A stretch of DNA of 64,000 bases from Candidatus Curtissbacteria bacterium (GTDB lineage: Bacteria > Patescibacteriota > Microgenomatia > Curtissbacterales > GWA2-41-24), in contig JACPEV010000006.1 in NCBI GenBank assembly GCA_016183325.1, positions 5,883 to 69,882 of the forward strand, given 5' to 3'. The translations under genes and the position numbers were made by a program. Positions 7,796 through 40,625 of this stretch are shown one piece after another. Each line of letters opens with the position of its first letter. The first letter of the stretch is position 1. The notes beneath the pieces are model-generated. The model was not told the DNA's origin and did no database searches. It was given only the letters and a program-made list of their open reading frames with translations.

Positions 7796-8218
7796 TCAAT
7801 TTTCAACTTTCAATTTCCTAATTGCTTCCAGTGCCAAAAAGGCGCACTTCAGTCTGGCCGGTGCCACCGGCCCACCAATTAAACTCAAGACATCTTGCCC
7901 AGTTAACTTACCCACACTTTCTACTGACTTACCGCGAATCTCCTCAGACAATATTGAAGCAGATGCCGTTGATATCGCGCAACCCGAACCGGTAAATGAA
8001 ACATCCCTGATCATCGCGCTTTTGCCCTTAGCAGGGACACCCCCGGGGTGGGCTTTGACTCCCCGGGGGTGGGAAACCCGGGAAATTTTGAAATAAAAAG
8101 TCACTTCATCACCACATAATGGATTGATTTGATTTACAACTAAATCAGCATGACTAATTACACCGTAGTTTTGCGGATTCTGCCAATGCTCCAATATTTC
8201 TTCGCGATAGATATCCAT
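7796..8218 (-). CDS. sufU: SufU/NifU-like Fe-S assembly scaffold. Carries an in-frame palindromic insertion.
   Basis: NPLCGDE, GSGCAIS and LKCA motifs of IscU/SufU. The extra segment SRVSHPRGVKAHPGGVPAKGK is encoded by the palindromic element at 8040-8092. Confidence 0.75.
   Translation of the reverse strand: MDIYREEILEHWQNPQNYGVISHADLVVNQINPLCGDEVTFYFKISRVSHPRGVKAHPGGVPAKGKSAMIRDVSFTGSGCAISTASASILSEEIRGKSVESVGKLTGQDVLSLIGGPVAPARLKCAFLALEAIRKLKVEN
8040..8092. repeat. Palindromic insertion of family P2 (CACCCCCGGGGTG ... CCCCGGGGGTGGG) in frame inside sufU.
   Basis: Near-perfect palindromic 13-mers at 8048-8060 and 8071-8083. The reverse complement of the 17813-17840 segment in trxB matches GCAGGGACACCCCCGGGGTGG here. 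Confidence 0.7.
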
Positions 8219-10445: not shown

Positions 10446-10685
10446 AAGTTTATAAATTCGAATAAGATCGTTTTGCTTCGCAAAAGCGAAATTCGAAACT
10501 CGAAACAATTTTGTATTCTAGAAAATAGTTTCTAGAAACTGGAAATTGGAAATGGAAAATTGAGATTGGAAAATAGTTATAATTTATTCTCCATTTTCTA
10601 TTTTCTACTTTCCATTACAATTTTCTAATTTCCAGTAACTAATTTCTTTATGCACTAATTTCGTGCTTCGGATTTCGAATTTTTT
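10446..10685. repeat. Intergenic repeat IR-A, copy 3 of 3. It overlaps the last codons of sufD.
   Basis: Alignment as given for 6471-6690. The SufD C-terminal KHEISA-stop is encoded inside the repeat. Confidence 0.8.
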
Positions 10686-11184
10686 CCAATATTGGACTCA
10701 CAAATCCCTCTACCAGCATTCTTTCAGCTTCCTTTCGGCTCAGCCCCCTACTCATCAAATAAAACAACATCTGCTCATCAACTTTTCCAATTGTCGCCGC
10801 GTGGCCGGCCTTAACATCCTGCTCCAAAATCTCCAGTGCCGGCGTGTCGTCTCCCATTTTGGCCTCATCGAACAAAAGCGCATCGGATCTCAAGTACGCA
10901 TCCGCCCCCTTTGCCCCTTTTTCAATCTTCACATTTCCCCGAAAAGCAAAAGTCGACCTGTCGCGCAAAACACTTTTCACTTTGACTTCTGACTTCGTGC
11001 GTGGTGCCGCGTGAGTAATGTAAATCTCCAATGCCTTATTCTCATCTCCCCTACCTAACGCAAGTCCAACTATCTCCACCCTCGCATTCTCCCCTGCCAA
11101 AACCACCTCAACTTTCTCTTCTCCATTTTCCAAAAGCAGAGGGATAAATTCGGTCTTATTCGACAAAACAACAATTTGCTTCAT
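10648..11184 (-). CDS. sufD: SufD-like Fe-S assembly protein (short SufBD-family beta-helix protein).
   Basis: Homology to the C-terminal beta-helix region of SufB/SufD (GENARVEIVGLALG, AATIGKVDEQMLFYLMSRGL). ATG at 11182-11184 is preceded by GGAGT. Confidence 0.65.
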   Translation of the reverse strand: MKQIVVLSNKTEFIPLLLENGEEKVEVVLAGENARVEIVGLALGRGDENKALEIYITHAAPRTKSEVKVKSVLRDRSTFAFRGNVKIEKGAKGADAYLRSDALLFDEAKMGDDTPALEILEQDVKAGHAATIGKVDEQMLFYLMSRGLSRKEAERMLVEGFVSPILEKIRNPKHEISA

Positions 11185-11294
11185 ATTACTTACTCCAATG
11201 AATCGAATCACTGGAGTTATCTTATAGACTAATTACGTCTCTTTCTAAAATACTCATTCATAGGCTTCCAGTAATACGTGTGCCGCCGTCATCA

Positions 11295-11728
11295 ATATGA
11301 ACTGTTTGTTTAATTGTTTTTGACATAGGATATCGCAACTGTTAAATTCGTCCTATGCTTTCAAAGCCTTGGCTAAAAGCGCTATCAGCTTTATCTGTAA
11401 ACATATCAGCTGTATGGTTTGGTCTTGCTGTAATTACTCCTAACTTTACTAGCTTAAATAGCCTAGAAGCAATCTCAACATTGATCAAAGACGTAATTTT
11501 TGGTATAGTTTTTCTACAAATCAGTGTAAAAATTGAGGAAATATTAGAAAAATGAACGATTTTCTTAATATTAGTACGAATGTTCAAATTTCTACGGCCT
11601 TGGTTCTGATCGTTCTGCTTTTGCTCTACATTGCGTTCAAGCTCTCCAATAAACCCCGCAGGCGATAAATTAACTTCCTCCGGCTTTGCATTTATATGAA
11701 CTGTTTGTTTAATTGTTTTCATTGACAT
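11295..11728. repeat. Pair of 30-bp direct repeats (ATATGAACTGTTTGTTTAATTGTTTT) flanking a ~370-bp insert between sufD and sufB.
   Basis: Identical 26-30-mers at 11297-11326 and 11694-11723. The repeat encodes the first 11 codons (MSxKTIKQTVHI) of the 128-aa minus-strand ORF 11342-11728. A truncated second copy of that start lies at 11333. Confidence 0.6.
11342..11728 (-). CDS. Hypothetical protein inside the direct-repeat-bounded insert.
   Basis: 128-aa ORF with no recognisable motif. Its start region is duplicated at 11300-11333. Confidence 0.3.
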   Translation of the reverse strand: MSMKTIKQTVHINAKPEEVNLSPAGFIGELERNVEQKQNDQNQGRRNLNIRTNIKKIVHFSNISSIFTLICRKTIPKITSLINVEIASRLFKLVKLGVITARPNHTADMFTDKADSAFSQGFESIGRI

Positions 11729-11827
11729 TTTCTAAATGTCATTCTGGAGCGAACAAAGTGAACGATAGAATCTGATGAGTAGATCCTATCGGTCGTTTCA
11801 CTCCCTCCAGGATGACAATGAGGATAT

Positions 11828-14800
11828 TCATCCTACCGCCCCTATCATTTCCAACTGAATTAACCTATTCAACTCAACTGCATACTCGAGTGGTAATTCC
11901 TTAACAATCGGTTCAATGAAACCGTTGACAATCAAAGAAGTTGCTTCCATCTCTGTTAAACCCCGACTCATCAGATAAAACAATTGTGCCGCATCAATCC
12001 TGGAAACCGCTGCCTCATGCCCGATTCGCACATTATCTTCATTAACCTGCATCGTCGGATAAGTATCGCTTCTTGATTTCTCATCCAAAATCAACGCATC
12101 ACATCTCACATTACACTTAACCCTTTCTGCATTTTTAATCACTTTAACCAACCCACGATACGAGGTCCGGCCTCCAAACGCACTAACAGATTTTGAAATA
12201 ATCTCGCCGCTTGTATCCGGTGCCAAAAACATCAGTTTTCCGCCGGCATCCTGATGTTGCCCTGCCCCGGCGTAAGCTAGGGACAAAACCTCTCCTCTTG
12301 CCCCTCTTCCAACCAAATAACAGCTCGGATATTTCATCGTAATTTTACTGTTATGAACCACTATGCCATTCGCAATAAAATTCGCAGTTTTATCTACCTC
12401 AATATCATAGACTCGCAATCTACCTATGGGTTCAATCGAGCGAACTCTGGTAAATCTCAAGGTCGGATCGAACTCTTTTTTTTCTATTATTCTCTCCAAA
12501 TTACCTCTAATGTTCATAGATAAATAATGAGACGTGTACTCAATTAATCTCCCTTTATATAGTTTTCGTTCCTTTGTGTAGGTTGTGATTTTTAATGGAT
12601 CCAAACCAACCGACATCATCAATAACTTTAAACTTTCGAGTAGATTTTTATTTGCGCTCGCAAAAACTATTTGACCATATTGATTTCCATCTTTTTTGAT
12701 CGCCTTTCTTAAGTAACCATCAGCATCAAAGTACCCCTCAATAAATGCCAGCTTCTCTCTTCTTGAAAGGCTAAATATCCAATTAGGAATTTTTTTCGTT
12801 TTAGCTGTACCCGAAAAACCCAAATCTAAAAATAACTTAGCCAAAGCTGTTGAATTAACTGTCAGAGAGATACCCTTAGGAGTAAACGGAATATCAAAAA
12901 CAAACTTTAGAAGTTTTTCTAGCTTTTTGCGCGCATGATCATTTGGTGGTACTGCAAAATAAATTCTTCGAACAACTCCCGAAAATGAACGATCCATACA
13001 GCCATCACCCAAGTATAGACCCAACAGCCACATCAGCTCTTCAGAAGTCTTATTAGGAATTGTTGGTTTGTGCTTTAAAAGATGTTGATCATAACTAAAA
13101 TTGATTTCATATGGTTTTCCATCATCTGGAAGTTCGTTAACGATAGCAATCCAATCACCTACTTTTAAATTTTCCAGTTTTTCCCATCTCAAGGTCACCA
13201 AACCAATGTTAGAAGTTTTTCTCAAAACCAGAAATGGATGATTAGCTGTTGCCTCAATTTCTCGATAGTTGGTGGTTAAAACTTTAAATACCGGCTTTAC
13301 GCCCTGATCAACGACTGCATTTACCTTGCTTTTTGCTGCTTTAAGAGTATTCAAATCTGTAGTATAAATCCAATCGCCGGCTTTTAAATCTTTAATACTG
13401 ACTGGCCCTTCTGGATTAGTAAAAAGCTTTGCATTTTCCGTTAAACATCCGATATTAGCATCCACCCACTCCATCGTCCCTTCTTCCTCAACAAATGCCC
13501 GCTTTGTCACCAGGTTATAAACATTACTTGACCAATTTTGAATTGTGGTATATCGACAGCGCGCTCCGCGCTTAACAAAAATCTCCACCACCGCCGCATG
13601 CAAAGAATCTGTTGTATAAACCGGGGCGGTGCAATTGTGCGAAATGACACCTTCAGCGACATATGATTCATCTTCTTCGACACTAAAGTTGTAAACACTA
13701 GTATTCAATTCTTCTACCTTAATTGATTTAATAGGAAGATAAATATAGTTTTCATCCATAAAAAATGGCGATCCTTCTTTGCGCCCGTTTAGCACGTCTT
13801 TTTGAACAATTTGGCCAAAAAAGACATTAGATGTACGCGAAATAATGACAGTGTACATAATTTGCCTGGGCATTACCCTCTTATGTAGATTAATTGAAGC
13901 GACTACCCCAATTTTCAATAATGCATCGCGAAACCCATATGCTAATTGTCTAGTAACTGAATTGTATCTAAATAAATTCGCTTTTTTGTCATAGCTTCCA
14001 TCGCCCCTCCATAACCCTTTGATCAATTCGCCCAAGTGCGACTTAGGACTTTCCAGCATCCATGCGGATATGTGTTTCGTCCTATTTGTAGAACCAAATT
14101 CTCTACGAAAAAATCTCGCAGCAAGGGTTGAACAAATTGTAATAGTCTGCCCATTGTTTCTTATTTTTCCCTCTATAACTTCTTTTCCAAAATAAAGAGT
14201 CAATAAACTTTTTACATCTTTTAAATATTCTTTTTCTTTTATGTTGAAAGTAAAAGTCAAGTAATGATCTTTATCAACGTGCCCTTCTGAAAGATAGTAG
14301 CCCACCAGACGATAAAAATCAGGATCGAGTGTTAGCTTAAGACTTTTTTGTGTTACATGAATGCCATTTCCAAAAGGAATTTGGAGATCTATATTCGGTT
14401 TAAAGTTATAAATAAATGGTTTCTCCAAATTCAAAGGAACAGTCTTAATCGTATCCGTTTCTACAATCTCTTTCTCTGTTTCTTTTCTTTGAATTGGAAA
14501 AACCAAATAATCACCTAATTCCACTTTGTCAGCCCTGATCCACTCAGGTGAGAAATATGTGTTTCTATACTCCTTTTTTTCTCTTTTGCAAACAAAAAGA
14601 GGGTGCTCTTCCGTTACTTTTAAAACAGCATCACTGTCACCGTAATACTTAATAGAAAAAATCTTGCCCTTGTATTGACGTTTCATGGTATTGTAAACGC
14701 GTCTATATCTTCCTTTATGAGTTAATACATTGTCTCCAACTTCAATATCCTCAATTAGTTTCTCTCCCTGATCAGTCTTCACTCTTGCACCTGCAATGAA

Positions 14801-15493
14801 ACAGCCTTCGACGTAATGTACATACGCACCCTCATCAACAATAATTAAAGTCCTCTCAAACTGCCCCATGTTGGCGGCATTAATCCTAAAATATGCTTGT
14901 AGTGGAATATCAACAGAAACTCCTGGAGGCACATAAACAAAAGACCCGCCAGACCAAACGGCAGAGTTTAGGGAAGCAAATTTATTATCCGCGGGGGGAA
15001 TAGATCGACCGAAGTATTGTTTTACCAGATCCGGATATTTTCGAAGCCCACTATCCATATCCAAAAATATCACGCCCATATCTTCCCACTGCTTCTTAAA
15101 AGAGTGATAGACACTCTCGGAATCATATTGAGTTGTCACACCCGCCAAAAACTTTTTTTCTGCTTCGGGAATACCAATCGCGTCGTAAGTATCACGAATG
15201 TCTTTTGGTAATTCCTCCCACGATTTCGCCTGCTTATCAATCGGTTTTATGTAGTAGTAAATATTGTCAAAGTCAATTGTCGAAAGATCAGCTCCCCACG
15301 TTGGCATCTTCTTAGACGCGAAAATCGCTAAAGATCGAAGACGAAATTCCCTCATCCACTCCGGCTCACTCTTCATTCCGCTAATCTGCTCCACCACGGA
15401 CTTATCCAGTCCTTTCTGGCTCTTAAACACATAATTTTCCGGCTTTGAGAAACCGTATTTGTAATCGTTTGGAACGATTAATCCATTCGCCAT
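11828..15493 (-). CDS. sufB: Fe-S cluster assembly protein SufB interrupted by two inteins. The 1221-aa precursor gives a spliced SufB of about 465 aa.
   Basis: Extein segments match SufB: N-terminal 230 aa ending in YVHYVEG; CTAPVYTTDSLHAAVVEIFV...NWSSNVYNLVTKRA...MEWVDANIG; SKITMKYPSCYLVGRGARGEVLSLAYAGAGQHQDAG through the C-terminus. The two insertions have the intein signatures C...HN + C/S. Confidence 0.9.
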   Translation of the reverse strand: MANGLIVPNDYKYGFSKPENYVFKSQKGLDKSVVEQISGMKSEPEWMREFRLRSLAIFASKKMPTWGADLSTIDFDNIYYYIKPIDKQAKSWEELPKDIRDTYDAIGIPEAEKKFLAGVTTQYDSESVYHSFKKQWEDMGVIFLDMDSGLRKYPDLVKQYFGRSIPPADNKFASLNSAVWSGGSFVYVPPGVSVDIPLQAYFRINAANMGQFERTLIIVDEGAYVHYVEGCFIAGARVKTDQGEKLIEDIEVGDNVLTHKGRYRRVYNTMKRQYKGKIFSIKYYGDSDAVLKVTEEHPLFVCKREKKEYRNTYFSPEWIRADKVELGDYLVFPIQRKETEKEIVETDTIKTVPLNLEKPFIYNFKPNIDLQIPFGNGIHVTQKSLKLTLDPDFYRLVGYYLSEGHVDKDHYLTFTFNIKEKEYLKDVKSLLTLYFGKEVIEGKIRNNGQTITICSTLAARFFRREFGSTNRTKHISAWMLESPKSHLGELIKGLWRGDGSYDKKANLFRYNSVTRQLAYGFRDALLKIGVVASINLHKRVMPRQIMYTVIISRTSNVFFGQIVQKDVLNGRKEGSPFFMDENYIYLPIKSIKVEELNTSVYNFSVEEDESYVAEGVISHNCTAPVYTTDSLHAAVVEIFVKRGARCRYTTIQNWSSNVYNLVTKRAFVEEEGTMEWVDANIGCLTENAKLFTNPEGPVSIKDLKAGDWIYTTDLNTLKAAKSKVNAVVDQGVKPVFKVLTTNYREIEATANHPFLVLRKTSNIGLVTLRWEKLENLKVGDWIAIVNELPDDGKPYEINFSYDQHLLKHKPTIPNKTSEELMWLLGLYLGDGCMDRSFSGVVRRIYFAVPPNDHARKKLEKLLKFVFDIPFTPKGISLTVNSTALAKLFLDLGFSGTAKTKKIPNWIFSLSRREKLAFIEGYFDADGYLRKAIKKDGNQYGQIVFASANKNLLESLKLLMMSVGLDPLKITTYTKERKLYKGRLIEYTSHYLSMNIRGNLERIIEKKEFDPTLRFTRVRSIEPIGRLRVYDIEVDKTANFIANGIVVHNSKITMKYPSCYLVGRGARGEVLSLAYAGAGQHQDAGGKLMFLAPDTSGEIISKSVSAFGGRTSYRGLVKVIKNAERVKCNVRCDALILDEKSRSDTYPTMQVNEDNVRIGHEAAVSRIDAAQLFYLMSRGLTEMEATSLIVNGFIEPIVKELPLEYAVELNRLIQLEMIGAVG
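12350..13447 (-). mobile_element. Intein 2 of SufB (366 aa) with a LAGLIDADG homing-endonuclease domain.
   Basis: Begins CLTENAKLF after NIG and ends IVVHN followed by SKITMKYPS. LAGLIDADG motifs LLGLYLGDGCM and IEGYFDADGYL. Cys at 13445-13447, terminal Asn at 12350-12352. Confidence 0.85.
13634..14803 (-). mobile_element. Intein 1 of SufB (390 aa) with a LAGLIDADG homing-endonuclease domain.
   Basis: Begins with Cys (CFIAGARVKTD) right after YVEG and ends VISHN followed by CTAP. LAGLIDADG-type motifs LVGYYLSEGHV and LIKGLWRGDGSY. Boundaries were verified by codon counting (Cys 14801-14803, Asn 13634-13636). Confidence 0.85.
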
Positions 15494-15496
15494 CTT

Positions 15497-15775
15497 CTTT
15501 TATTGTTCGAGTGAAATCGAGAACAACAAGCTTGTCTTATTGTTCGAGTGAAATCGAGAACTTACCATTCCTCAAATTGTCATCCTGAACTTGTTTCAGG
15601 ATCTTATGGTAACTTCTCGACTCGCTTCGCTCGCTCGAAGAATATTACTCCATTTTGCCGACAACTTCCTATTTGTCATTCTGGCTTGTCCAGAATCTGC
15701 TTACTTGTCATTCTCGACTCGATCGAGAATCTGGATCCTGAATTGAATTCAGGATGACAAGACGACTAAGTTCCC
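15497..15775. repeat. Cluster of short hairpin/MITE-like units between sufB and sufC. Includes a tandem 24-mer and GTCATCCTGAA/TTCAGGATGAC and GTCATTCTGG/CTTGTCCAGAATC units.
   Basis: TATTGTTCGAGTGAAATCGAGAAC duplicated in tandem (15501-15560). Inverted repeats GTCATCCTGAAC..TTCAGGATC, GTCATTCTGGCTTGTCCAGAATC, GTCATTCTCGACTCGATCGAGAATC, GGATCCTGAATTGAATTCAGGATGAC. Confidence 0.7.
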
Positions 15776-15951
15776 CTCTCTCTTCTTCTAGGAGGAAACT
15801 TATCACCTAATTTGCTTTGAATTCTCCAAAGTCTTTCATAAACTTGTCTTTCTCTTTCAGAAACAAATTCTGGCCCAAAAAGCACCAAAGACATATCATT
15901 GTCTAGGCCAGGTCCAACCTTCAACTCCACAATTTCGCCTTCTTTAGACAT
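15766..15951 (-). CDS. Small hypothetical ORF between sufC and sufB. Coding status uncertain.
   Basis: 61-aa ORF in operon position with no motif. The region is repeat-rich, so it may be spurious. Confidence 0.2.
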   Translation of the reverse strand: MSKEGEIVELKVGPGLDNDMSLVLFGPEFVSERERQVYERLWRIQSKLGDKFPPRRRERGT

Positions 15952-15960
15952 ACCCTGTCC

Positions 15961-16818
15961 TTACTCGCCAACGTATTCCAAACCCGGTTTGGAATAGCTT
16001 TGCGAGTCAGGATTAGAGACCACAGACTGATAACCTTTTTGCTCTATTTCTTGAGCTAATTTCGCCTTCCCCGATTTAACGATCTTCCCATCAACCATCA
16101 CATGCACAAAATCTGGCTTTAAGTATTTCAAAATCCTTGCATAGTGCGTTATCAGAATAATTGAGGATCTCGGATTCACTTTGATGAATCGAATTATCGA
16201 AGTGGCAACAAGTTTCAATCCGTCAACATCCAAACCGCTATCAATCTCATCCAAAATCACCAATTTAGGCTTCAGTGCCATCATCTGCAAAATCTCATTC
16301 CTCTTTTTCTCCCCCCCGGAAAAGCCTTCATTAAGCGAACGGCTTATGAAGTCATCGGAAAGTTTTAGCGAGGATGCATACTCGAGAAGTTCTTCTCGAA
16401 ACTTCGAAAGTTTGTTCAGGGGTTCAACCCCCGAAACTACTGACGGTGCTCGGGCTTTAGGGGTTGAACCCCTCGTCTGTCCCAAAATACTCTGCTTCGC
16501 ACGGCGAAGCACATTAAACACGCTCACTCCCGGCACTTCCACCGGATGCTGAAATCCCAAAAATATTCCTAATTTCGCCCTTTTATCGGGAGAAAGATTT
16601 CTTAAATCTTTCTCGTCCATCGTTAATCGTCCATCGTTAATCGTATAGAATGGGTACCCCATGACAACTTGGGCAAGAGTAGATTTGCCCGAACCGTTCG
16701 GCCCCATCAATACATGCATTTCTCCCGGTCGGATCGTCAGATCTAGACCTTTCAAAATCCCCTTCCCTTCGACTGAGACTCGCAAATTTTGAATTTTTAA
16801 TAAAAGTTCATCGTTCAT
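15961..16818 (-). CDS. sufC: SufC, the Fe-S assembly ABC ATPase. Carries an in-frame palindromic insertion.
   Basis: Walker A GPNGSGKST, ABC signature FSGGEKKR, Walker B LVILDEIDSGLD, H-loop ITHY. The extra segment TRGSTPKARAPSVVSGVEPLNK is encoded by 16419-16472. A 14-bp tandem duplication (ACGATTAACGATGG x2) lies at 16617-16644. Confidence 0.85.
   Translation of the reverse strand: MNDELLLKIQNLRVSVEGKGILKGLDLTIRPGEMHVLMGPNGSGKSTLAQVVMGYPFYTINDGRLTMDEKDLRNLSPDKRAKLGIFLGFQHPVEVPGVSVFNVLRRAKQSILGQTRGSTPKARAPSVVSGVEPLNKLSKFREELLEYASSLKLSDDFISRSLNEGFSGGEKKRNEILQMMALKPKLVILDEIDSGLDVDGLKLVATSIIRFIKVNPRSSIILITHYARILKYLKPDFVHVMVDGKIVKSGKAKLAQEIEQKGYQSVVSNPDSQSYSKPGLEYVGE
16419..16472. repeat. Palindromic insertion of family P3 (GGGGTTCAACCCC ... 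GGGGTTGAACCCC), 54 nt, in frame inside sufC.
   Basis: Inverted 13-mers at 16419-16431 and 16460-16472. Length is a multiple of 3. The position corresponds to a loop insertion relative to canonical SufC. Confidence 0.7.
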
Positions 16819-17638: not shown

Positions 17639-18682
17639 CTAATCATTTTGCGCTTCCAACCACTTCTCAGCCTCAATTGCAGCCGCACAGCCGTATCCTG
17701 CCGCCGTCACCGCTTGACGATAGTGGTAATCGTGTACATCTCCGGCCACAAAAACGCCAGGAACCGACGTCATCATTTTGAAACTTCCTTCCCCACCCCC
17801 GGGGTGTGCCGCAGGCGCAACACCACCCCGGGGGTGTCCCTGCGACTTGCGTACCACATACCCTTTCTCGTCAAGCTCCACCTGCCCCTTAAAAATATCC
17901 GTCATCGGGTGGTGACCAATTGCCACAAACATGCCATCAACTGCCAAGTCCCGAGTCGATCCATCTTTTAGGCCCGCAGCCGCAGGCGAGGACCGCAAGC
18001 CTGGCAAACTTACAGGTGAGCCAGGCTTATTCTTGATCTTTACTCCGGAAACTTTATCCTTCCCTAGAATGTCAACCACTTCAGAATTTAATATAAACGA
18101 AATCTTCTTATTTGCTTTTGCCCTATCTACCATTATCTTCGACGCCCGAAACTCATCTCTACGATGAACAATCGTCACCTCAGTCGCAAACTTGGTTAGA
18201 GTCAACGCTTCCTCCATTGCGCTATCCCCACCACCAACCACAACCACTTTTTTATCGCGAAAGAAAAATGCATCACACGGTGCGCAAGAAGAAATTCCCC
18301 GACCAATTAATCTTTGTTCATTGGCAAGTCCCAACCAATTTGTCTCGGCCCCGGTTGCAATAATAACTGCCTTTGATTTGTATGCTTTATCATCGGCTGT
18401 TATCAAAAAAGGACGATTGGAAAAATCAACTGCAGTCACATCAGTGGTTGCAATTTCCGCCCCAAATCTTTCGGCTTGATGCCGAAATTTCTCCATCAAT
18501 TCCGGCCCTAAAATTCCATCAACAAAACCCGGATAATTCTCAACATCCGTAGTCAACATCAATTGCCCACCCCATTTGACACCAGCTAAAACCAAGGGTT
18601 TCAAATCTGCCCGTGCATTGTATAAAGCGGCCGTTAATGCCGCCGGTCCGGAACCGATGATAATGACGTTACGAATATCCAT
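17639..18682 (-). CDS. trxB: Thioredoxin-disulfide reductase carrying two in-frame palindromic insertions.
   Basis: GSGPAALTAALY FAD motif, CAPCD redox centre, VVVGGGDSAMEEALTLT NADPH motif, VPGVFVAGDV. Likely start is MDIRN at 18680-18682. Extra segments KPGSPVSLPGLRSSPAAAGLKDGSTRDL and RKSQGHPRGGVAPAAHPGGGEGSFKM are absent from canonical TrxB. Confidence 0.8.
   Translation of the reverse strand: MDIRNVIIIGSGPAALTAALYNARADLKPLVLAGVKWGGQLMLTTDVENYPGFVDGILGPELMEKFRHQAERFGAEIATTDVTAVDFSNRPFLITADDKAYKSKAVIIATGAETNWLGLANEQRLIGRGISSCAPCDAFFFRDKKVVVVGGGDSAMEEALTLTKFATEVTIVHRRDEFRASKIMVDRAKANKKISFILNSEVVDILGKDKVSGVKIKNKPGSPVSLPGLRSSPAAAGLKDGSTRDLAVDGMFVAIGHHPMTDIFKGQVELDEKGYVVRKSQGHPRGGVAPAAHPGGGEGSFKMMTSVPGVFVAGDVHDYHYRQAVTAAGYGCAAAIEAEKWLEAQND
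17790..17845. repeat. Palindromic insertion of family P2 in frame inside trxB, in inverse orientation to the sufU copy.
   Basis: CACCCCCGGGGTG at 17794-17806 and CACCCCGGGGGTG at 17824-17836. The reverse complement matches the element at 8040-8092. Confidence 0.7.
17958..18030. repeat. Second GC-rich hairpin insertion in trxB (CCCGCAGCCGCAGGCG ... AAGCCTGGC...GCCAGGCTT).
   Basis: Local GC spike and an inverted repeat AAGCCTGGC / GCCAGGCTT. Encodes the extra LPGLRSSPAAAGLKDGSTRDL segment. Confidence 0.5.
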
Positions 18683-18725
18683 ACTTAAGTATCTTAAGTT
18701 ACTTAAGTAACTTAAGCAACCGAAT
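18683..18725. promoter_or_regulatory. Array of ACTTAAGT palindromes immediately upstream of the trxB start. Candidate operator.
   Basis: ACTTAAGTATCTTAAGTTACTTAAGTAACTTAAG: four overlapping perfect palindromic units within 40 bp of the start codon. Confidence 0.35.
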
Positions 18726-18877
18726 TTTTTATTGACAAAATTTTTGTCAAAAACTTTGCGGGAATTTTTCAACAATTCTTAAAAAATTTCCGATTGATCA
18801 ATTAATTTATCCGGATTTTAGCCATTTCTGGGTAAAAATAAATCACTATTGACACCTTTTAGGTACATTATCTTAGA

Positions 18878-21984: not shown

Positions 21985-23286
21985 TCAATTACTTAAACTA
22001 TCTATTAATTTATTGTTCAATATAAATTCCGCCACCTTCGTCCCCATAAATAAATTGCCGTTTTTACTGTAGTGAGCATCGAGCGCAAAATGCAAATCTC
22101 CATTTTGGTTTTTCCATTCTAAGCCGTCAAGTCGCGGATCATAAAAGTTTATCTCTAAATCTTTGGCAGCTTCAGAAAGTACTTCGTTAATTTCAAACGC
22201 TGATGAGCTGTTTGGATCTAATTTATATGTTTTTTGCAAATGATCCCAATCGCCTGCCTGAACTTGAGCTTTTGGAATATTTATCGTAAGCAAAAACACA
22301 GCTTTATGTTCGTTTGCTTGCCTTTTCATATCTGCAAGTATTACTTTTATCAAAGACCAGGAGTCTAAAACTTCTCTTGGCGGATTTTTTTGCGAAGCAA
22401 CCACCTCAAAAGGCCCTTGTACTAACTGTGCATCGGATAAGAAAAATCTCTCCTCTTTGACAAACCCCAATATGCTAATCCGAACATCATCAACCAACTT
22501 TTTGAAAAACTGATTTCCCAAGGATGCTTTTACAACCAAATGATATATATAAGTTTCTCGCACCAACTTCCCCAGCCAATTTCCCCCCATCCGATCTTTG
22601 GGATCGACAACTTTCAACTTTCCCGCTTCGCCCGCGACTATCGTCGACGCAGGCGCGAAGCGAGGCGAGCCACTTTCCACTTTGACTAACTTATTCTTAT
22701 ATGTATCTCCAACATCATTTGGCGAAAACGCCAAAATGACCATATCCGGTTGAAATTGCCAGACTTTTTCCCGAAGCGTCAACCACTGCTGATCAGTGCC
22801 ATATCCGGAAACTCCGAAATTGTAACTTTCGACCCTCCGGGTCGGTCTCTGACTCGGAGCAGTCTCTGACTCGGAGAAAGGCCCTTCTGGGCCGGAGGCT
22901 TTTTCCGCTAACTCGCGACTTAACTTTCTGGCCATTACTTTTTGCCAGGTATCGGCAAGTTCAACCTGCAATGCTTCTTCTTGAGAGTCTCCTAAAACGG
23001 CTATTCTATAAACATCACTAGCTTTATCATGAGTAAACTGATCATCGCGAAACCCATCGGAATTAATCGCAATCTCAACCGTCACACCGTCAGAAATGCT
23101 GTAAGGAAAAACAGCGTTGGGCTTATTCTCGTGCAAAAAAAGTGTTGAGGATTGTAACTTTGCCAAATTTTCGGGCACAGGAGTAAATAGTCGAAGCAAT
23201 ATTTCAAGTAAAATTAAGGCAGTCAACAAAGCCCAAAAAGAAAGTACAGCTCTTACAATAACTTTCTTCATCTGATATTTGATCAT
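21985..23286 (-). CDS. Membrane-anchored SGNH/GDSL-like hydrolase-fold protein with two repeat-derived insertions.
   Basis: N-terminal TM helix, then IAVLGDSQEEALQ, GVSGYGTDQQW, VILAFSPNDVGD (SGNH blocks I-III-like). Insertions are encoded by 22625-22672 (P4 palindrome) and 22844-22876 (15-nt tandem). Confidence 0.4.
   Translation of the reverse strand: MIKYQMKKVIVRAVLSFWALLTALILLEILLRLFTPVPENLAKLQSSTLFLHENKPNAVFPYSISDGVTVEIAINSDGFRDDQFTHDKASDVYRIAVLGDSQEEALQVELADTWQKVMARKLSRELAEKASGPEGPFSESETAPSQRPTRRVESYNFGVSGYGTDQQWLTLREKVWQFQPDMVILAFSPNDVGDTYKNKLVKVESGSPRFAPASTIVAGEAGKLKVVDPKDRMGGNWLGKLVRETYIYHLVVKASLGNQFFKKLVDDVRISILGFVKEERFFLSDAQLVQGPFEVVASQKNPPREVLDSWSLIKVILADMKRQANEHKAVFLLTINIPKAQVQAGDWDHLQKTYKLDPNSSSAFEINEVLSEAAKDLEINFYDPRLDGLEWKNQNGDLHFALDAHYSKNGNLFMGTKVAEFILNNKLIDSLSN
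22625..22672. repeat. Palindromic element P4 (GCTTCGCCCGCGACTATCGTCGACGCAGGCGCGAAGC) in frame inside the SGNH-like gene.
   Basis: Its reverse complement matches 40147-40190 inside the alkD-like gene (CGCCTGCGTCGACGATAGTCGCGGGCG). Confidence 0.65.
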
Positions 23287-39773: not shown

Positions 39774-40625
39774 TTATTTTCCTAGATAAAACTTCTTTTT
39801 TCCGGCTTCAAATCTCTCAATTGCATAGCGAAGCATCGTTCGTGGCATTTGTTTGTAGTGTTTTCTCAAAAACTCTTCCTCAACCTGCTGATCTCTCTTG
39901 CCCACTTCCCTGAGCATCCACCCTACCGCCTTATGTATCAAATCATGCTTATCAGAAAGCAACATTTCGCCAATTTTCAGAGTCCACGTAAAATCTTTCT
40001 TTTCTTTAATGAATTGAAATGTAGCAATAATGGCAATCCTTCGCTCCCATAGATTATTTGATCTTGCCAGTTTTTCTAAAATGTCATTCTGGGGATCCGG
40101 CGAAGCCGGAGACTCCAGTTTTCTAGCTTTGATTCTGGACAAGCTCGCCTCACTCCGCGCCTGCGTCGACGATAGTCGCGGGCGGAGCGGGCCAGAATGA
40201 CGAGAATTTATCAAATACCCGCCCACAATTTTATCGGCCGATAAATCAACTAAGTCCCAATTATTAATGTACTTTGTATTCTTAAGATAAAAATCGAAAA
40301 TTAATCTCTTCACCTCCGAGGAGCCCCCTTCGACTTCGCTCAGGGCAAGCGAGCTCACCTCGGAGGTGTTTTGGATCCGTTCTACCAAAATTAAAAGTGC
40401 GATTAACCTTTCTTCGTGAATCTTCGATCTCAAAAGTTTCTCAATCTCGCCAAATGAAAGGTCTTTAAATTTTTGGGCAATCTTCCTAGACTGTGGCACC
40501 GTAATTCCCAAAAACACATCCCCTTCCCCATATTGCCCTTTCCCCGTTTTAAAAAATCTTGCCAAAATCTTAGCTTTCTTCTTATTTTTCAGTTTTTTTA
40601 AATCCCTCCTCAACTCGAAAATCAT
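39774..40625 (-). CDS. DNA alkylation repair enzyme (AlkD/AlkC HEAT-repeat family) with two in-frame MITE insertions.
   Basis: N-terminal LKKLKNKKKAKILARFFKTGKGQYGEGDVFLGITVPQSRKIAQKF and C-terminal WERRIAIIATFQFIKEK...HKAVGWMLREVGKRD match PF08713. The extra segments SEVEGG... and SGPLRPRLSSTQARSEASLSRIKARKLESPASP are encoded by 40083-40203 and 40309-40370. Confidence 0.6.
   Translation of the reverse strand: MIFELRRDLKKLKNKKKAKILARFFKTGKGQYGEGDVFLGITVPQSRKIAQKFKDLSFGEIEKLLRSKIHEERLIALLILVERIQNTSEVSSLALSEVEGGSSEVKRLIFDFYLKNTKYINNWDLVDLSADKIVGGYLINSRHSGPLRPRLSSTQARSEASLSRIKARKLESPASPDPQNDILEKLARSNNLWERRIAIIATFQFIKEKKDFTWTLKIGEMLLSDKHDLIHKAVGWMLREVGKRDQQVEEEFLRKHYKQMPRTMLRYAIERFEAGKKKFYLGK
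40083..40203. repeat. Nested MITE inside the alkD-like gene: a GTCATTCTGG/CCAGAATGAC shell (inverted orientation) enclosing the P4 core CGCCTGCGTCGACGATAGTCGCGGGCG.
   Basis: GATTCTGGACAAGC ... GCCAGAATGAC termini at 40131-40203. The P4 core is the reverse complement of 22634-22660. A further GTCATTCTGGGG unit lies at 40084. Confidence 0.7.
40309..40370. repeat. P1 palindromic element (CACCTCCGAGGA ... CACCTCGGAGGTG) with a CTTCGACTTCGCTCAGGGC core, in frame inside the alkD-like gene.
   Basis: Termini at 40311-40322 and 40356-40368. The core is the reverse complement of the CTGAGCGAAGTCGAAGGG motif. Confidence 0.7.

What the first reader, a model, noticed from the sequence alone, without database searches (positions are those of the whole stretch)
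11828..15493. SufB carrying two full-length LAGLIDADG inteins
The 1221-aa ORF reduces to a canonical ~465-aa SufB after removal of two inteins of 390 aa and 366 aa. The first is inserted after YVEG, before CTAP. The second is inserted after NIG, before SKITMKYPS. Each has Cys1, terminal His-Asn, a +1 Cys or Ser, and two LAGLIDADG motifs. About 60% of the gene is selfish DNA, inside the Fe-S biogenesis operon.
Basis: partly seen in the sequence, partly recalled or inferred. Interest (0 to 1): 0.55.

Follow-up and report, generated by a model that had tools for sequence, protein, structure and literature searches.

The report
SufB gene carrying two inteins
The iron-sulfur assembly gene sufB of this Curtissbacteria (CPR) genome is interrupted by two self-splicing, endonuclease-carrying inteins at known insertion hot spots; this is a clean but ordinary example of a well-known kind of selfish element.

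Summary
The ORF at 11828-15493 (minus strand) encodes 1221 aa. Removing residues 231-620 (390 aa) and 683-1048 (366 aa) leaves a 465-aa protein. That protein matches the SufB equivalog model end to end in one stretch. It has the same length as intein-free Curtissbacteria SufBs and is up to 93% identical to them.

Both inserts have Cys1, a TxxH block B, a terminal His-Asn, a +1 Cys or Ser, and two LAGLIDADG motifs with invariant acidic residues. Their AlphaFold models match solved endonuclease-bearing inteins (TliVMA, PI-SceI, PI-PkoII).

Intein 1 occupies exactly the M. tuberculosis SufB intein site (YVEG|C..HN|CTAP). Its +1 Cys is the sulfur-acceptor cysteine, E. coli C254. Intein 2 occupies a second site (NIG|S) that is filled in many bacterial and archaeal phyla.

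Public data show four SufB insertion sites, with dozens of two-intein and some three-intein SufBs. Close relatives carry no intein, one, the other, or three.

Intein 2 shares far more synonymous sites with the copy in one relative than the flanking exteins do (pS 0.20 vs 0.68). That indicates recent horizontal homing.

Verdict: a new member of a known kind, of low to moderate interest.

The parts
11828..15493 (-). sufB precursor ORF, 1221 aa plus stop codon
   Evidence: [quoted passage not shown]
14804..15493 (-). N-extein, residues 1-230, ending ..AYVHYVEG (His at -5)
   Evidence: aligns to E. coli SufB 18-253
13634..14803 (-). Intein 1, 390 aa: CFIAG...VISHN, followed by +1 Cys (CTAP). It sits at the M. 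tuberculosis SufB intein site.
   Evidence: Pfam Intein_splicing 46.1 bits and LAGLIDADG_3 51.1 bits. AF2 pLDDT 88. Foldseek hits to TliVMA, PI-SceI and PI-PkoII at E 1e-21 to 1e-15. Aligns end to end with the Mtu SufB intein, E 2e-29.
14594..14623 (-). Intein 1 block B, LKVTEEHPLF (T64, H67)
   Evidence: T64 and H67 are invariant in the 42-sequence alignment A1
14276..14317 (-). Intein 1 first LAGLIDADG motif, FYRLVGYYLSEGHV (E173)
   Evidence: E173 and G174 are invariant; aligns to the PI-PkoII motif LLGYYVSEGY
13991..14035 (-). Intein 1 second LAGLIDADG motif, LGELIKGLWRGDGSY (D268)
   Evidence: D268 and G269 are invariant; aligns to PI-PkoII FLEGYFIGDGDV
13634..13696 (-). Intein 1 blocks F and G, VYNFSVEEDESYVAEGVISHN
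   Evidence: H389 and N390 are invariant. The pattern matches the Mtu SufB intein VYNLDVENPDSYLAYGFAVHN.
13448..13633 (-). Middle extein, residues 621-682 (62 aa), from CTAPVYTT.. to ..WVDANIG. C621 corresponds to E. coli SufB C254.
   Evidence: role of C254 from PMC5571166
12350..13447 (-). Intein 2, 366 aa: CLTEN...IVVHN, followed by +1 Ser (SKITMKYPS)
   Evidence: Pfam Intein_splicing 80.4 bits and LAGLIDADG_3 46.2 bits. TIGR01445 and TIGR01443 match. AF2 pLDDT 90. Foldseek hit to the TliVMA intein, E 2e-23, TM 0.75.
13229..13258 (-). Intein 2 block B, IEATANHPFL (T67, H70)
   Evidence: H70 is invariant and T67 invariant or nearly so
12995..13036 (-). Intein 2 first LAGLIDADG motif, LMWLLGLYLGDGCM (D148)
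   Evidence: G147, D148 and G149 are invariant in A2
12710..12754 (-). Intein 2 second LAGLIDADG motif, KLAFIEGYFDADGYL (D243)
   Evidence: D243 and G244 are invariant in A2 and A3
12350..12412 (-). Intein 2 blocks F and G, VYDIEVDKTANFIANGIVVHN
   Evidence: D348, H365 and N366 are invariant; aligns to the NpuDnaB and Spl DnaX mini-inteins
11831..12349 (-). C-extein, residues 1049-1221. It carries T1052 and K1054 (= E. coli T326 and K328), C1131 (= C405), and H1159 and E1160 (= H433 and E434).
   Evidence: Ungapped alignment to E. coli SufB 323-494; residue mapping
15961..16818 (-). sufC (ABC ATPase), upstream operon partner
   Evidence: Pfam ABC_tran; same gene order in relatives
10648..11211 (-). 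Short sufD (about 178-187 aa), downstream operon partner
   Evidence: Pfam SUFBD_core 160.7 bits. SufD is 171-177 aa in related Curtissbacteria loci.

Best explanation
This is the sufB gene of a Candidatus Curtissbacteria (CPR/Patescibacteria) genome. Two independent class-1 inteins have invaded it, and each carries a double-motif LAGLIDADG homing endonuclease.

Inferred mechanism. The 1221-aa precursor is translated whole, and each intein folds and removes itself. The steps are: (1) an N-S acyl shift at Cys1 (C231 or C683), helped by the block B Thr and His; (2) attack by the +1 nucleophile, C621 for intein 1 and S1049 for intein 2; (3) cyclisation of the terminal Asn (N620 or N1048), helped by the penultimate His; (4) an acyl shift that forms a normal peptide bond. 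The product is a 465-aa SufB that joins SufC and the short SufD.

Until both inteins are out, the beta-helix core is split at two points. One is the sulfur-acceptor cysteine (E. coli C254). The other lies three and five residues before tunnel residues T326 and K328. The precursor should therefore be inactive.

At the DNA level, each endonuclease is expected to cut intein-free sufB alleles at its own insertion site, and repair then copies the intein in (homing). The sequence features, the fold predictions, the restoration of the extein and the population pattern are shown here. Splicing and cleavage activity are inferred.
For: - Boundaries and junction residues are as reported.
- The spliced product hits TIGR01980 sufB over 2-448/448 in one stretch at 715.5 bits, against a cut-off of 346.
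- It is 465 aa, as are the closest intein-free Curtissbacteria SufBs, and 93% identical over 100% of its length. 118 of the 120 best extein hits are shorter than 500 aa, and most keep YVEGCTAP and NIGSKITM contiguous.
- The spliced DNA aligns without gaps to an intein-free allele.
- Pfam and NCBIfam intein and LAGLIDADG models match above their cut-offs.
- The catalytic residues are invariant across 42 homologues of intein 1 and 18 of intein 2.
- The AF2 models (pLDDT 88 and 90) match endonuclease-bearing inteins and I-DmoI.
- Intein 1 is allelic with the Mtu SufB intein, which has been shown experimentally to splice. The junction is the same (YVEG|C..HN|CTAP), the C-extein is 235 aa in both, and the two inteins align end to end at E 2e-29.
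- Close relatives (extein identity of 83% or more) carry no intein, intein 1 only, intein 2 only, or three inteins.
- Intein 2 compared with the copy in L005 has pS 0.20, against 0.68 for the exteins. At identical residues, 88% of codons are the same in the intein against 55% in the exteins (Fisher p = 4e-24). Two control comparisons are flat.
- dN/dS of the endonuclease domains is 0.05-0.14.
- The inteins have 35% GC (GC3 30%), against 44% for the exteins.
- The whole gene is reproduced base for base in two separate run-level assemblies.
Against: - No experiment was done, so splicing, its order and endonuclease activity are all inferred.
- Intein 1 has Asn rather than Asp at the usual block F position and lacks the block F His. 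The splicing-competent Mtu SufB intein shares both features.
- The N-extein His at -38, which is reported to assist Mtu SufB splicing, is Ser here. His at -5 and Asp at -36 are conserved.
- Intein 1 shows no sign of recent transfer: pS is equal in intein and extein against L086.
- No co-conversion tract is visible around intein 2.
Confidence: 0.93

Rival explanations
1. Both inserts are inteins that still splice, but their endonuclease domains are dead relics. The elements would then be fixed passengers inherited only vertically.
For: Intein 1 shows the same synonymous divergence as its exteins against L086. Mini-inteins that have lost the endonuclease exist at the same sites in other lineages (157-160 aa at sites 230 and 292). 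No co-conversion tract is seen.
Against: The LAGLIDADG acidic residues are invariant. dN/dS of the endonuclease domains is 0.05-0.14, as low as in the splicing domains. Intein 2 is far younger than its exteins in the comparison with L005 (p = 4e-24). The inteins are present in some close relatives and absent in others.
Confidence: 0.2
2. The two-intein gene is an assembly chimera. It would have joined an intein-1-only strain and an intein-2-only strain across the short (186 nt) middle extein.
For: The closest relatives carry one intein or the other, and this exact combination was seen for only one protein cluster.
Against: Window 11791-15607 is reproduced exactly in two independent single-run assemblies, SRR12113419 and SRR12113430, and in the MAG. 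The single-intein relatives differ by 12-17% at the extein protein level, so they share no identical bridge. Thirty-nine other clusters carry the same two-site architecture.
Confidence: 0.02
3. The inserts cannot splice. The gene would then be a pseudogene, or would encode a SufB with two permanent insertion domains.
For: There is no direct splicing evidence, and intein 1 has a non-canonical block F.
Against: All nucleophiles and the block B and G residues are intact. The exteins are under strong purifying selection, dN/dS 0.03-0.05. The window holds no second sufB. The inserts break the beta-helix at C254 and next to T326 and K328, which are needed for function. In M. tuberculosis the unspliced precursor does not bind SufC or SufD (PMC8529194).
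Confidence: 0.03

Closest known systems
Mycobacterium tuberculosis SufB (Pps1) intein, 359 aa
   Same: It uses the same host protein and exactly the same insertion point as intein 1 (..HYVEG|C...HN|CTAP..). Both have Cys1 and Cys+1, His at -5 and Asp at -36. The C-extein is 235 aa in both. Both have a LAGLIDADG domain and the same block F/G pattern (VYN..SY.A.G...HN). The two align end to end, E 2e-29.
   Different: Identity is only 25%. Intein 1 has an extra segment of about 40 aa (residues 106-150, partly low pLDDT). His at -38 is Ser here. The host is a CPR bacterium, not an actinobacterium. Other lineages at the same site (CFTKG..VAVHN, CLPGG..FAVHN) also exist.
SufB inteins at the AQYE|SEVVY site (extein position 124), as in Mycobacterium asiaticum and other Mycobacteriales
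   Same: They are homologous to intein 2 (30-33% identity over the full length), with the same Cys1 / His-Asn / Ser+1 chemistry and a LAGLIDADG domain.
   Different: The insertion site is different. This window's SufB is empty at that site, whereas its relative P0002 is occupied there. I could not confirm from the held literature whether this is the 'SufB-b' site of M. leprae named in PMC5050341.
Endonuclease-bearing inteins with solved structures: TliVMA (7qsu), PhoVMA, PI-SceI (1vde), PI-PfuI (1dq3), PI-PkoII (2cw7)
   Same: The predicted architecture is the same: a Hint splicing domain split by a two-motif LAGLIDADG endonuclease (sequence match to PI-PkoII).
   Different: Sequence identity is 12-20%, the host proteins differ, and no large extra DNA-recognition domain like that of PI-SceI is evident.
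Multi-intein host proteins, e.g. Mycobacterium smegmatis DnaB with two inteins (PMC6195587)
   Same: Two unrelated inteins sit in one essential protein, and both must splice to give an active product.
   Different: The host is SufB. In public data SufB carries up to three inteins spread over four sites.

Membership tests
Class 1 intein (Hint superfamily) | Cys or Ser nucleophile at intein position 1 | tested here: met
   C231 and C683; C1 is invariant in A1, A2 and A3
Class 1 intein (Hint superfamily) | Block B TxxH motif | tested here: met
   Intein 1 TEEH (T64, H67) and intein 2 TANH (T67, H70), conserved across homologues
Class 1 intein (Hint superfamily) | Block G: penultimate His, terminal Asn, and a +1 Cys, Ser or Thr | tested here: met
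   SHN|C and VHN|S; TIGR01443 intein_Cterm matches both
Class 1 intein (Hint superfamily) | Block F Asp and His | tested here: inconclusive
   Intein 2 has the Asp (VYDIEV) but Ala where His is usual. Intein 1 has Asn (VYNFSV) and no His. The splicing-proficient Mtu SufB intein shares the same pattern.
Class 1 intein (Hint superfamily) | In-frame insertion whose exact removal restores a conserved host protein | tested here: met
   TIGR01980 matched over 2-448/448 in one stretch; same length as intein-free orthologues and 93% identical; ungapped DNA alignment
Class 1 intein (Hint superfamily) | Hint fold | tested here: met
   AF2 models with pLDDT 88 and 90. Foldseek hits to solved inteins at E down to 2e-23, including mini-inteins and hedgehog Hint domains. 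These are predictions, not experiments.
Class 1 intein (Hint superfamily) | Autocatalytic protein splicing | not testable with these tools
   Needs expression of the precursor
LAGLIDADG homing endonuclease (double-motif, monomeric) | Two LAGLIDADG helices, each ending in a catalytic Asp or Glu | tested here: met
   Intein 1 E173 and D268; intein 2 D148 and D243. All are invariant. Pfam LAGLIDADG_3 scores 51.1 and 46.2 bits against a cut-off of 22.5.
LAGLIDADG homing endonuclease (double-motif, monomeric) | Pseudo-dimeric alpha-beta-beta-alpha-beta-beta-alpha fold | tested here: met
   The predicted helix-strand order and Foldseek matches to I-DmoI, PI-SceI and PI-PfuI
LAGLIDADG homing endonuclease (double-motif, monomeric) | Site-specific cleavage of the intein-free allele, followed by homing | not testable with these tools
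   Indirect support only: intein 2 is much younger than its exteins, close relatives differ in presence or absence, and dN/dS is low
SufB (TIGR01980 equivalog) | Full-length match above the curated cut-off | tested here: met
   715.5 bits against a cut-off of 346.4 for the spliced sequence
SufB (TIGR01980 equivalog) | Functional residues equivalent to E. coli C254, K328, C405 and E434 | tested here: met
   C621, K1054, C1131 and E1160; residue roles from PMC5571166
SufB (TIGR01980 equivalog) | suf operon context with sufC, sufD and sufS | tested here: met
   the same gene order in relatives

The most novel reading that the evidence does not exclude
SufB of uncultivated bacteria and archaea may be a four-site intein hot spot in which at least the intein 2 lineage is still homing among Curtissbacteria. 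Both inteins here sit on the sulfur relay of SufB: the C254-equivalent acceptor cysteine, and the residues just before the tunnel bottleneck. Intein 1 also has the same Cys1/Cys+1 pair that makes the M. tuberculosis SufB intein redox-sensitive. Double splicing could therefore act as a post-translational redox gate on what appears to be this CPR cell's Fe-S assembly pathway, rather than being purely parasitic.
Probability: 0.12. Interest if true: 0.5.

Novelty: new member of a known kind. Interest (0 to 1): 0.22.

Why it matters
This finding mainly helps annotation. The gene is a normal, presumably functional sufB whose length and domain hits could mislead automated pipelines. Some relatives are labelled 'SufD family' or 'DOD-type homing endonuclease'. 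It also gives a well-controlled natural example of intein turnover in a CPR lineage. Alleles with no, one, two or three inteins coexist among SufBs that are 83-93% identical. Two different intein lineages occupy the same site. There is also a clear synonymous-site signature of recent transfer of intein 2. The two small, well-folded LAGLIDADG inteins, one with a Cys and one with a Ser +1 residue, could serve as protein-engineering parts or meganuclease scaffolds. No new biology is implied.

Tried and rejected
1. I looked for the catalogued names of SufB/Pps1 insertion sites in the held literature. Topilina 2015 (PMC4547236) and Huet 2006 (PMC1447444) are not held. The supplements of Novikova 2016 are not held. 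I found only a passing mention of 'SufB-b in M. leprae'. So I could not establish the site of the M. leprae or Ferroplasma inteins. Instead I showed from sequence that M. asiaticum and other Mycobacteriales use the AQYE|SEVVY site.

2. I searched for other inteins in the window by phmmer of both inteins against all six-frame ORFs. None was found.

3. Rfam at gathering thresholds over the whole window returned nothing.

4. A scan of viral contigs with the intein 2 family found only distant relatives (32% identity or less), so no phage vector was identified.

5. I looked for a co-conversion tract around intein 2 against L005 and saw none.

6. I suspected that sufD (187 aa) was truncated. I rejected this because relatives have a 171-177 aa SufD.

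7. I considered an assembly chimera and rejected it.
Full report
**Observation.** Indexing the translation gives the reported landmarks:
- YVEG ends at residue 230 and CTAP starts at 621.
- NIG ends at 682 and SKITMKYPS starts at 1049.
- His-Asn sits at 619-620 and 1047-1048.

The two inserts are residues 231-620 (390 aa, window 13634-14803) and 683-1048 (366 aa, window 12350-13447). The remainder is 465 aa. The inserts make up 61.9% of the gene.

**Does excision restore SufB?** Yes, on three independent lines.
- The spliced sequence matches the NCBIfam SufB equivalog TIGR01980 over model positions 2-448 of 448 in one stretch at 715.5 bits (cut-off 346.4). The precursor matches in three pieces at 666 bits. 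Pfam SUFBD_core behaves the same way.
- A database search with the spliced sequence returned intein-free SufBs of exactly 465 aa, up to 93% identical over 100% of the query. Several are named Candidatus Curtissbacteria. Of the 120 best hits, 118 are shorter than 500 aa, and most have YVEGCTAP and NIGSKITM contiguous.
- The spliced DNA is 1398 nt. It aligns without a single gap (77.6% identity) to the 1398-nt intein-free sufB of a related contig, L003, and both junctions fall between intact codons.

Against E. coli SufB (5AWF), the first insertion falls between G253 and C254 and the second between G322 and S323.

**Are the inserts inteins with endonucleases?**
- Profile matches: both pass Pfam Intein_splicing (46.1 and 80.4 bits; cut-off 35.8) and LAGLIDADG_3 (51.1 and 46.2 bits; cut-off 22.5). 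Both match the NCBIfam intein C-terminal model, and intein 2 also matches the N-terminal model.
- Conserved residues in intein 1: alignment with 41 homologues leaves C1, T64, H67, E173-G174, D268-G269, H389 and N390 invariant.
- Conserved residues in intein 2: alignments with 17 and 9 homologues leave C1, H70, D148-G149, D243-G244, D348, H365 and N366 invariant.
- Structure: AlphaFold2 models are confident (pLDDT 88.4 and 90.2). Their best PDB matches are endonuclease-bearing inteins (TliVMA, PhoVMA, PI-SceI, PI-PfuI, PI-PkoII; E 1e-15 to 2e-23), followed by I-DmoI and mini-inteins.
- The two inteins are only about 22% identical to each other over the endonuclease domain, so they are not duplicates.
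- One departure: intein 1 has Asn, not Asp, in block F and lacks the block F His. The M. tuberculosis SufB intein shares this pattern and splices in vitro.

**Insertion sites compared with known ones.** The supplement of PMC8891592 prints the M. tuberculosis SufB domains. The N-extein ends ..SYVHYVEG, the intein runs CLPAG...FAVHN, and the C-extein starts CTAPIYKSDSLH...
- Intein 1 is therefore at exactly the M. tuberculosis site. His at -5, Asp at -36 and Cys at +1 are conserved, and the C-extein is 235 aa in both. The two inteins align end to end (25% identity, E 2e-29). His at -38 is Ser here.
- In M. tuberculosis the second site (GNIG|SKVTMKYP) is empty.
- Mapping the 120 best hits of the full-length search onto the extein shows four insertion sites in SufB:
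  - QY(E/D)|C..HN|SE at extein position 124;
  - WSGG|C..HN|SF at position 183;
  - Y(V/I)EG|C..HN|CTAP at position 230;
  - N(I/L/M)G|C..HN|S(K/R)xTM at position 292.
- Occupancy among those hits:

| Sites occupied | Clusters |
|---|---|
| 230 only | 41 |
| 230 + 292 | 39 |
| 292 only | 15 |
| 124 + 230 | 13 |
| three sites | 10 |
| 124 + 292 | 1 |
| 183 + 292 | 1 |

- A scan of one genome per species with the intein 2 family found site-292 inteins in Patescibacteria, Clostridia, Actinomycetota, Chloroflexota, Armatimonadota, Dormibacteria and several archaeal phyla.
- The same scan showed that Mycobacterium asiaticum and other Mycobacteriales carry a homologous intein at site 124.
- The two-intein architecture is thus common, and the protein itself is already deposited as SufB of a Curtissbacteria MAG.

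**Functional placement.** E. coli SufB C254 accepts persulfide sulfur from SufE. A tunnel lined by T326 and K328, among other residues, leads from it to C405 and E434 (PMC5571166).
- The +1 Cys of intein 1 is the C254 equivalent.
- The +1 Ser of intein 2 is S323, three and five residues before the T326 and K328 equivalents.
- C405, H433 and E434 are conserved as C1131, H1159 and E1160.

The unspliced precursor should therefore be inactive. This agrees with the report that unspliced M. tuberculosis SufB does not bind SufC or SufD (PMC8529194). That step is inference.

**Evidence of mobility.**
- Close relatives (extein identity 83-93%) are mostly intein-free. Others carry intein 1 only (e.g. 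P0003, P0009), intein 2 only (e.g. P0006, P0013), or three inteins (P0002).
- P0002 has the most similar extein among intein-bearing relatives (90%) and an intein 2 that is 93% identical. Its site-230 intein is only 43% identical to intein 1, so a different lineage sits in the same site.
- Codon-level comparison with the P0002 locus (L005) gives pS 0.68 (dS 1.77) for the exteins but pS 0.20 (dS 0.23) for intein 2. Nucleotide identity is 93% in the intein against 74-89% in the extein segments.
- At identical residues, 88% of intein codons are the same against 55% of extein codons (Fisher p = 4e-24). Two control pairs are flat: intein 2 vs L087, and intein 1 vs L086.
- Intein 2 therefore moved between these lineages long after their sufB genes diverged.
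- dN/dS of the endonuclease domains is 0.05-0.14, no higher than in the splicing domains.
- The inteins have 35% GC (GC3 30%), against 44% for the exteins.
- No co-conversion tract is visible, and intein 1 shows no recent-transfer signal.

**Artefact check.** Window 11791-15607, which covers the whole gene, occurs base for base in two single-run assemblies (SRR12113419 and SRR12113430). The window holds no second sufB and no other intein related to these two.

**Verdict.** This is a new, uncharacterised member of a well-known kind: class-1 LAGLIDADG inteins in SufB. One sits at the M. tuberculosis site and one at a second widely used site. Interest is modest. The added value is the four-site map, the allele polymorphism among close CPR relatives, and the synonymous-site evidence that intein 2 has homed recently.

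Noticed in passing
window 8038-8071 (in sufU/NifU_N gene 7796-8218) and 17794-17836 (in trxB 17639-18775): A GC-rich twin-palindrome element, CACCCCCGGGGTG-(6-15 nt)-C[AT]CCCCGGGGGTG, sits in frame inside two different genes. It encodes ..HPRGVKAHPGG.. in one and ..HPRGGVAPAAHPGGG.. in the other. There are 7 matches against 0.41 expected by chance. TrxB of relatives lacks this insert. It resembles in-frame palindromic insertion elements such as the Rickettsia palindromic elements.
   Followed up: partly
window 17969-18025: A second GC-rich (67%) in-frame insert of 19 aa (PGSPVSLPGLRSSPAAAGL) lies in trxB. It is absent from the 328-aa orthologue in L005.
   Followed up: partly
window 11212-11827 (sufB-sufD spacer): This spacer is the wreck of an AHSA1-family gene that is intact between sufB and sufD in relatives (L086 5903-6298, L003 8026-8457). 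The N-terminal 17 aa survive, a 31-nt piece of the start is duplicated 399 nt away (11290-11320 and 11689-11719), and the C-terminal 14 aa are retained. The sufB-sufD interval varies among relatives and holds different small ORFs.
   Followed up: partly
window 15494-15960 (sufC-sufB spacer): In relatives the sufC stop overlaps the sufB start. Here 467 bp intervene. They contain a tandem 31-nt repeat directly upstream of the sufB ATG (15494-15524 and 15531-15561) and an inverted repeat GTCATCCTGAA..TTCAGGATGAC (15577-15603 and 15734-15760). Two independent assemblies break inside this repeat.
   Followed up: partly
window 22618-22675 and 40137-40204: Another GC-rich repeat (core CGCGACTATCGTCGACGCAGGCGCG) is present in opposite orientations about 17.5 kb apart.
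   Followed up: no
L005 10844-11146; L087 3858-4154: Small free-standing GIY-YIG ORFs (98-100 aa) lie next to sufB or sufD in related Curtissbacteria loci. The suf operon may therefore attract more than one type of homing-endonuclease gene.
   Followed up: no
L056 2501-3661 (Thaumarchaeota); L074 2501-3598 (Clostridia): Two homologues of intein 2 sit in host proteins other than SufB: the flanking residues are not SufB-like. The host genes were not identified.
   Followed up: no
window 10648-11211: SufD in this clade is very short (171-187 aa). It covers only the C-terminal part of the SUFBD core (profile positions 95-232).
   Followed up: partly
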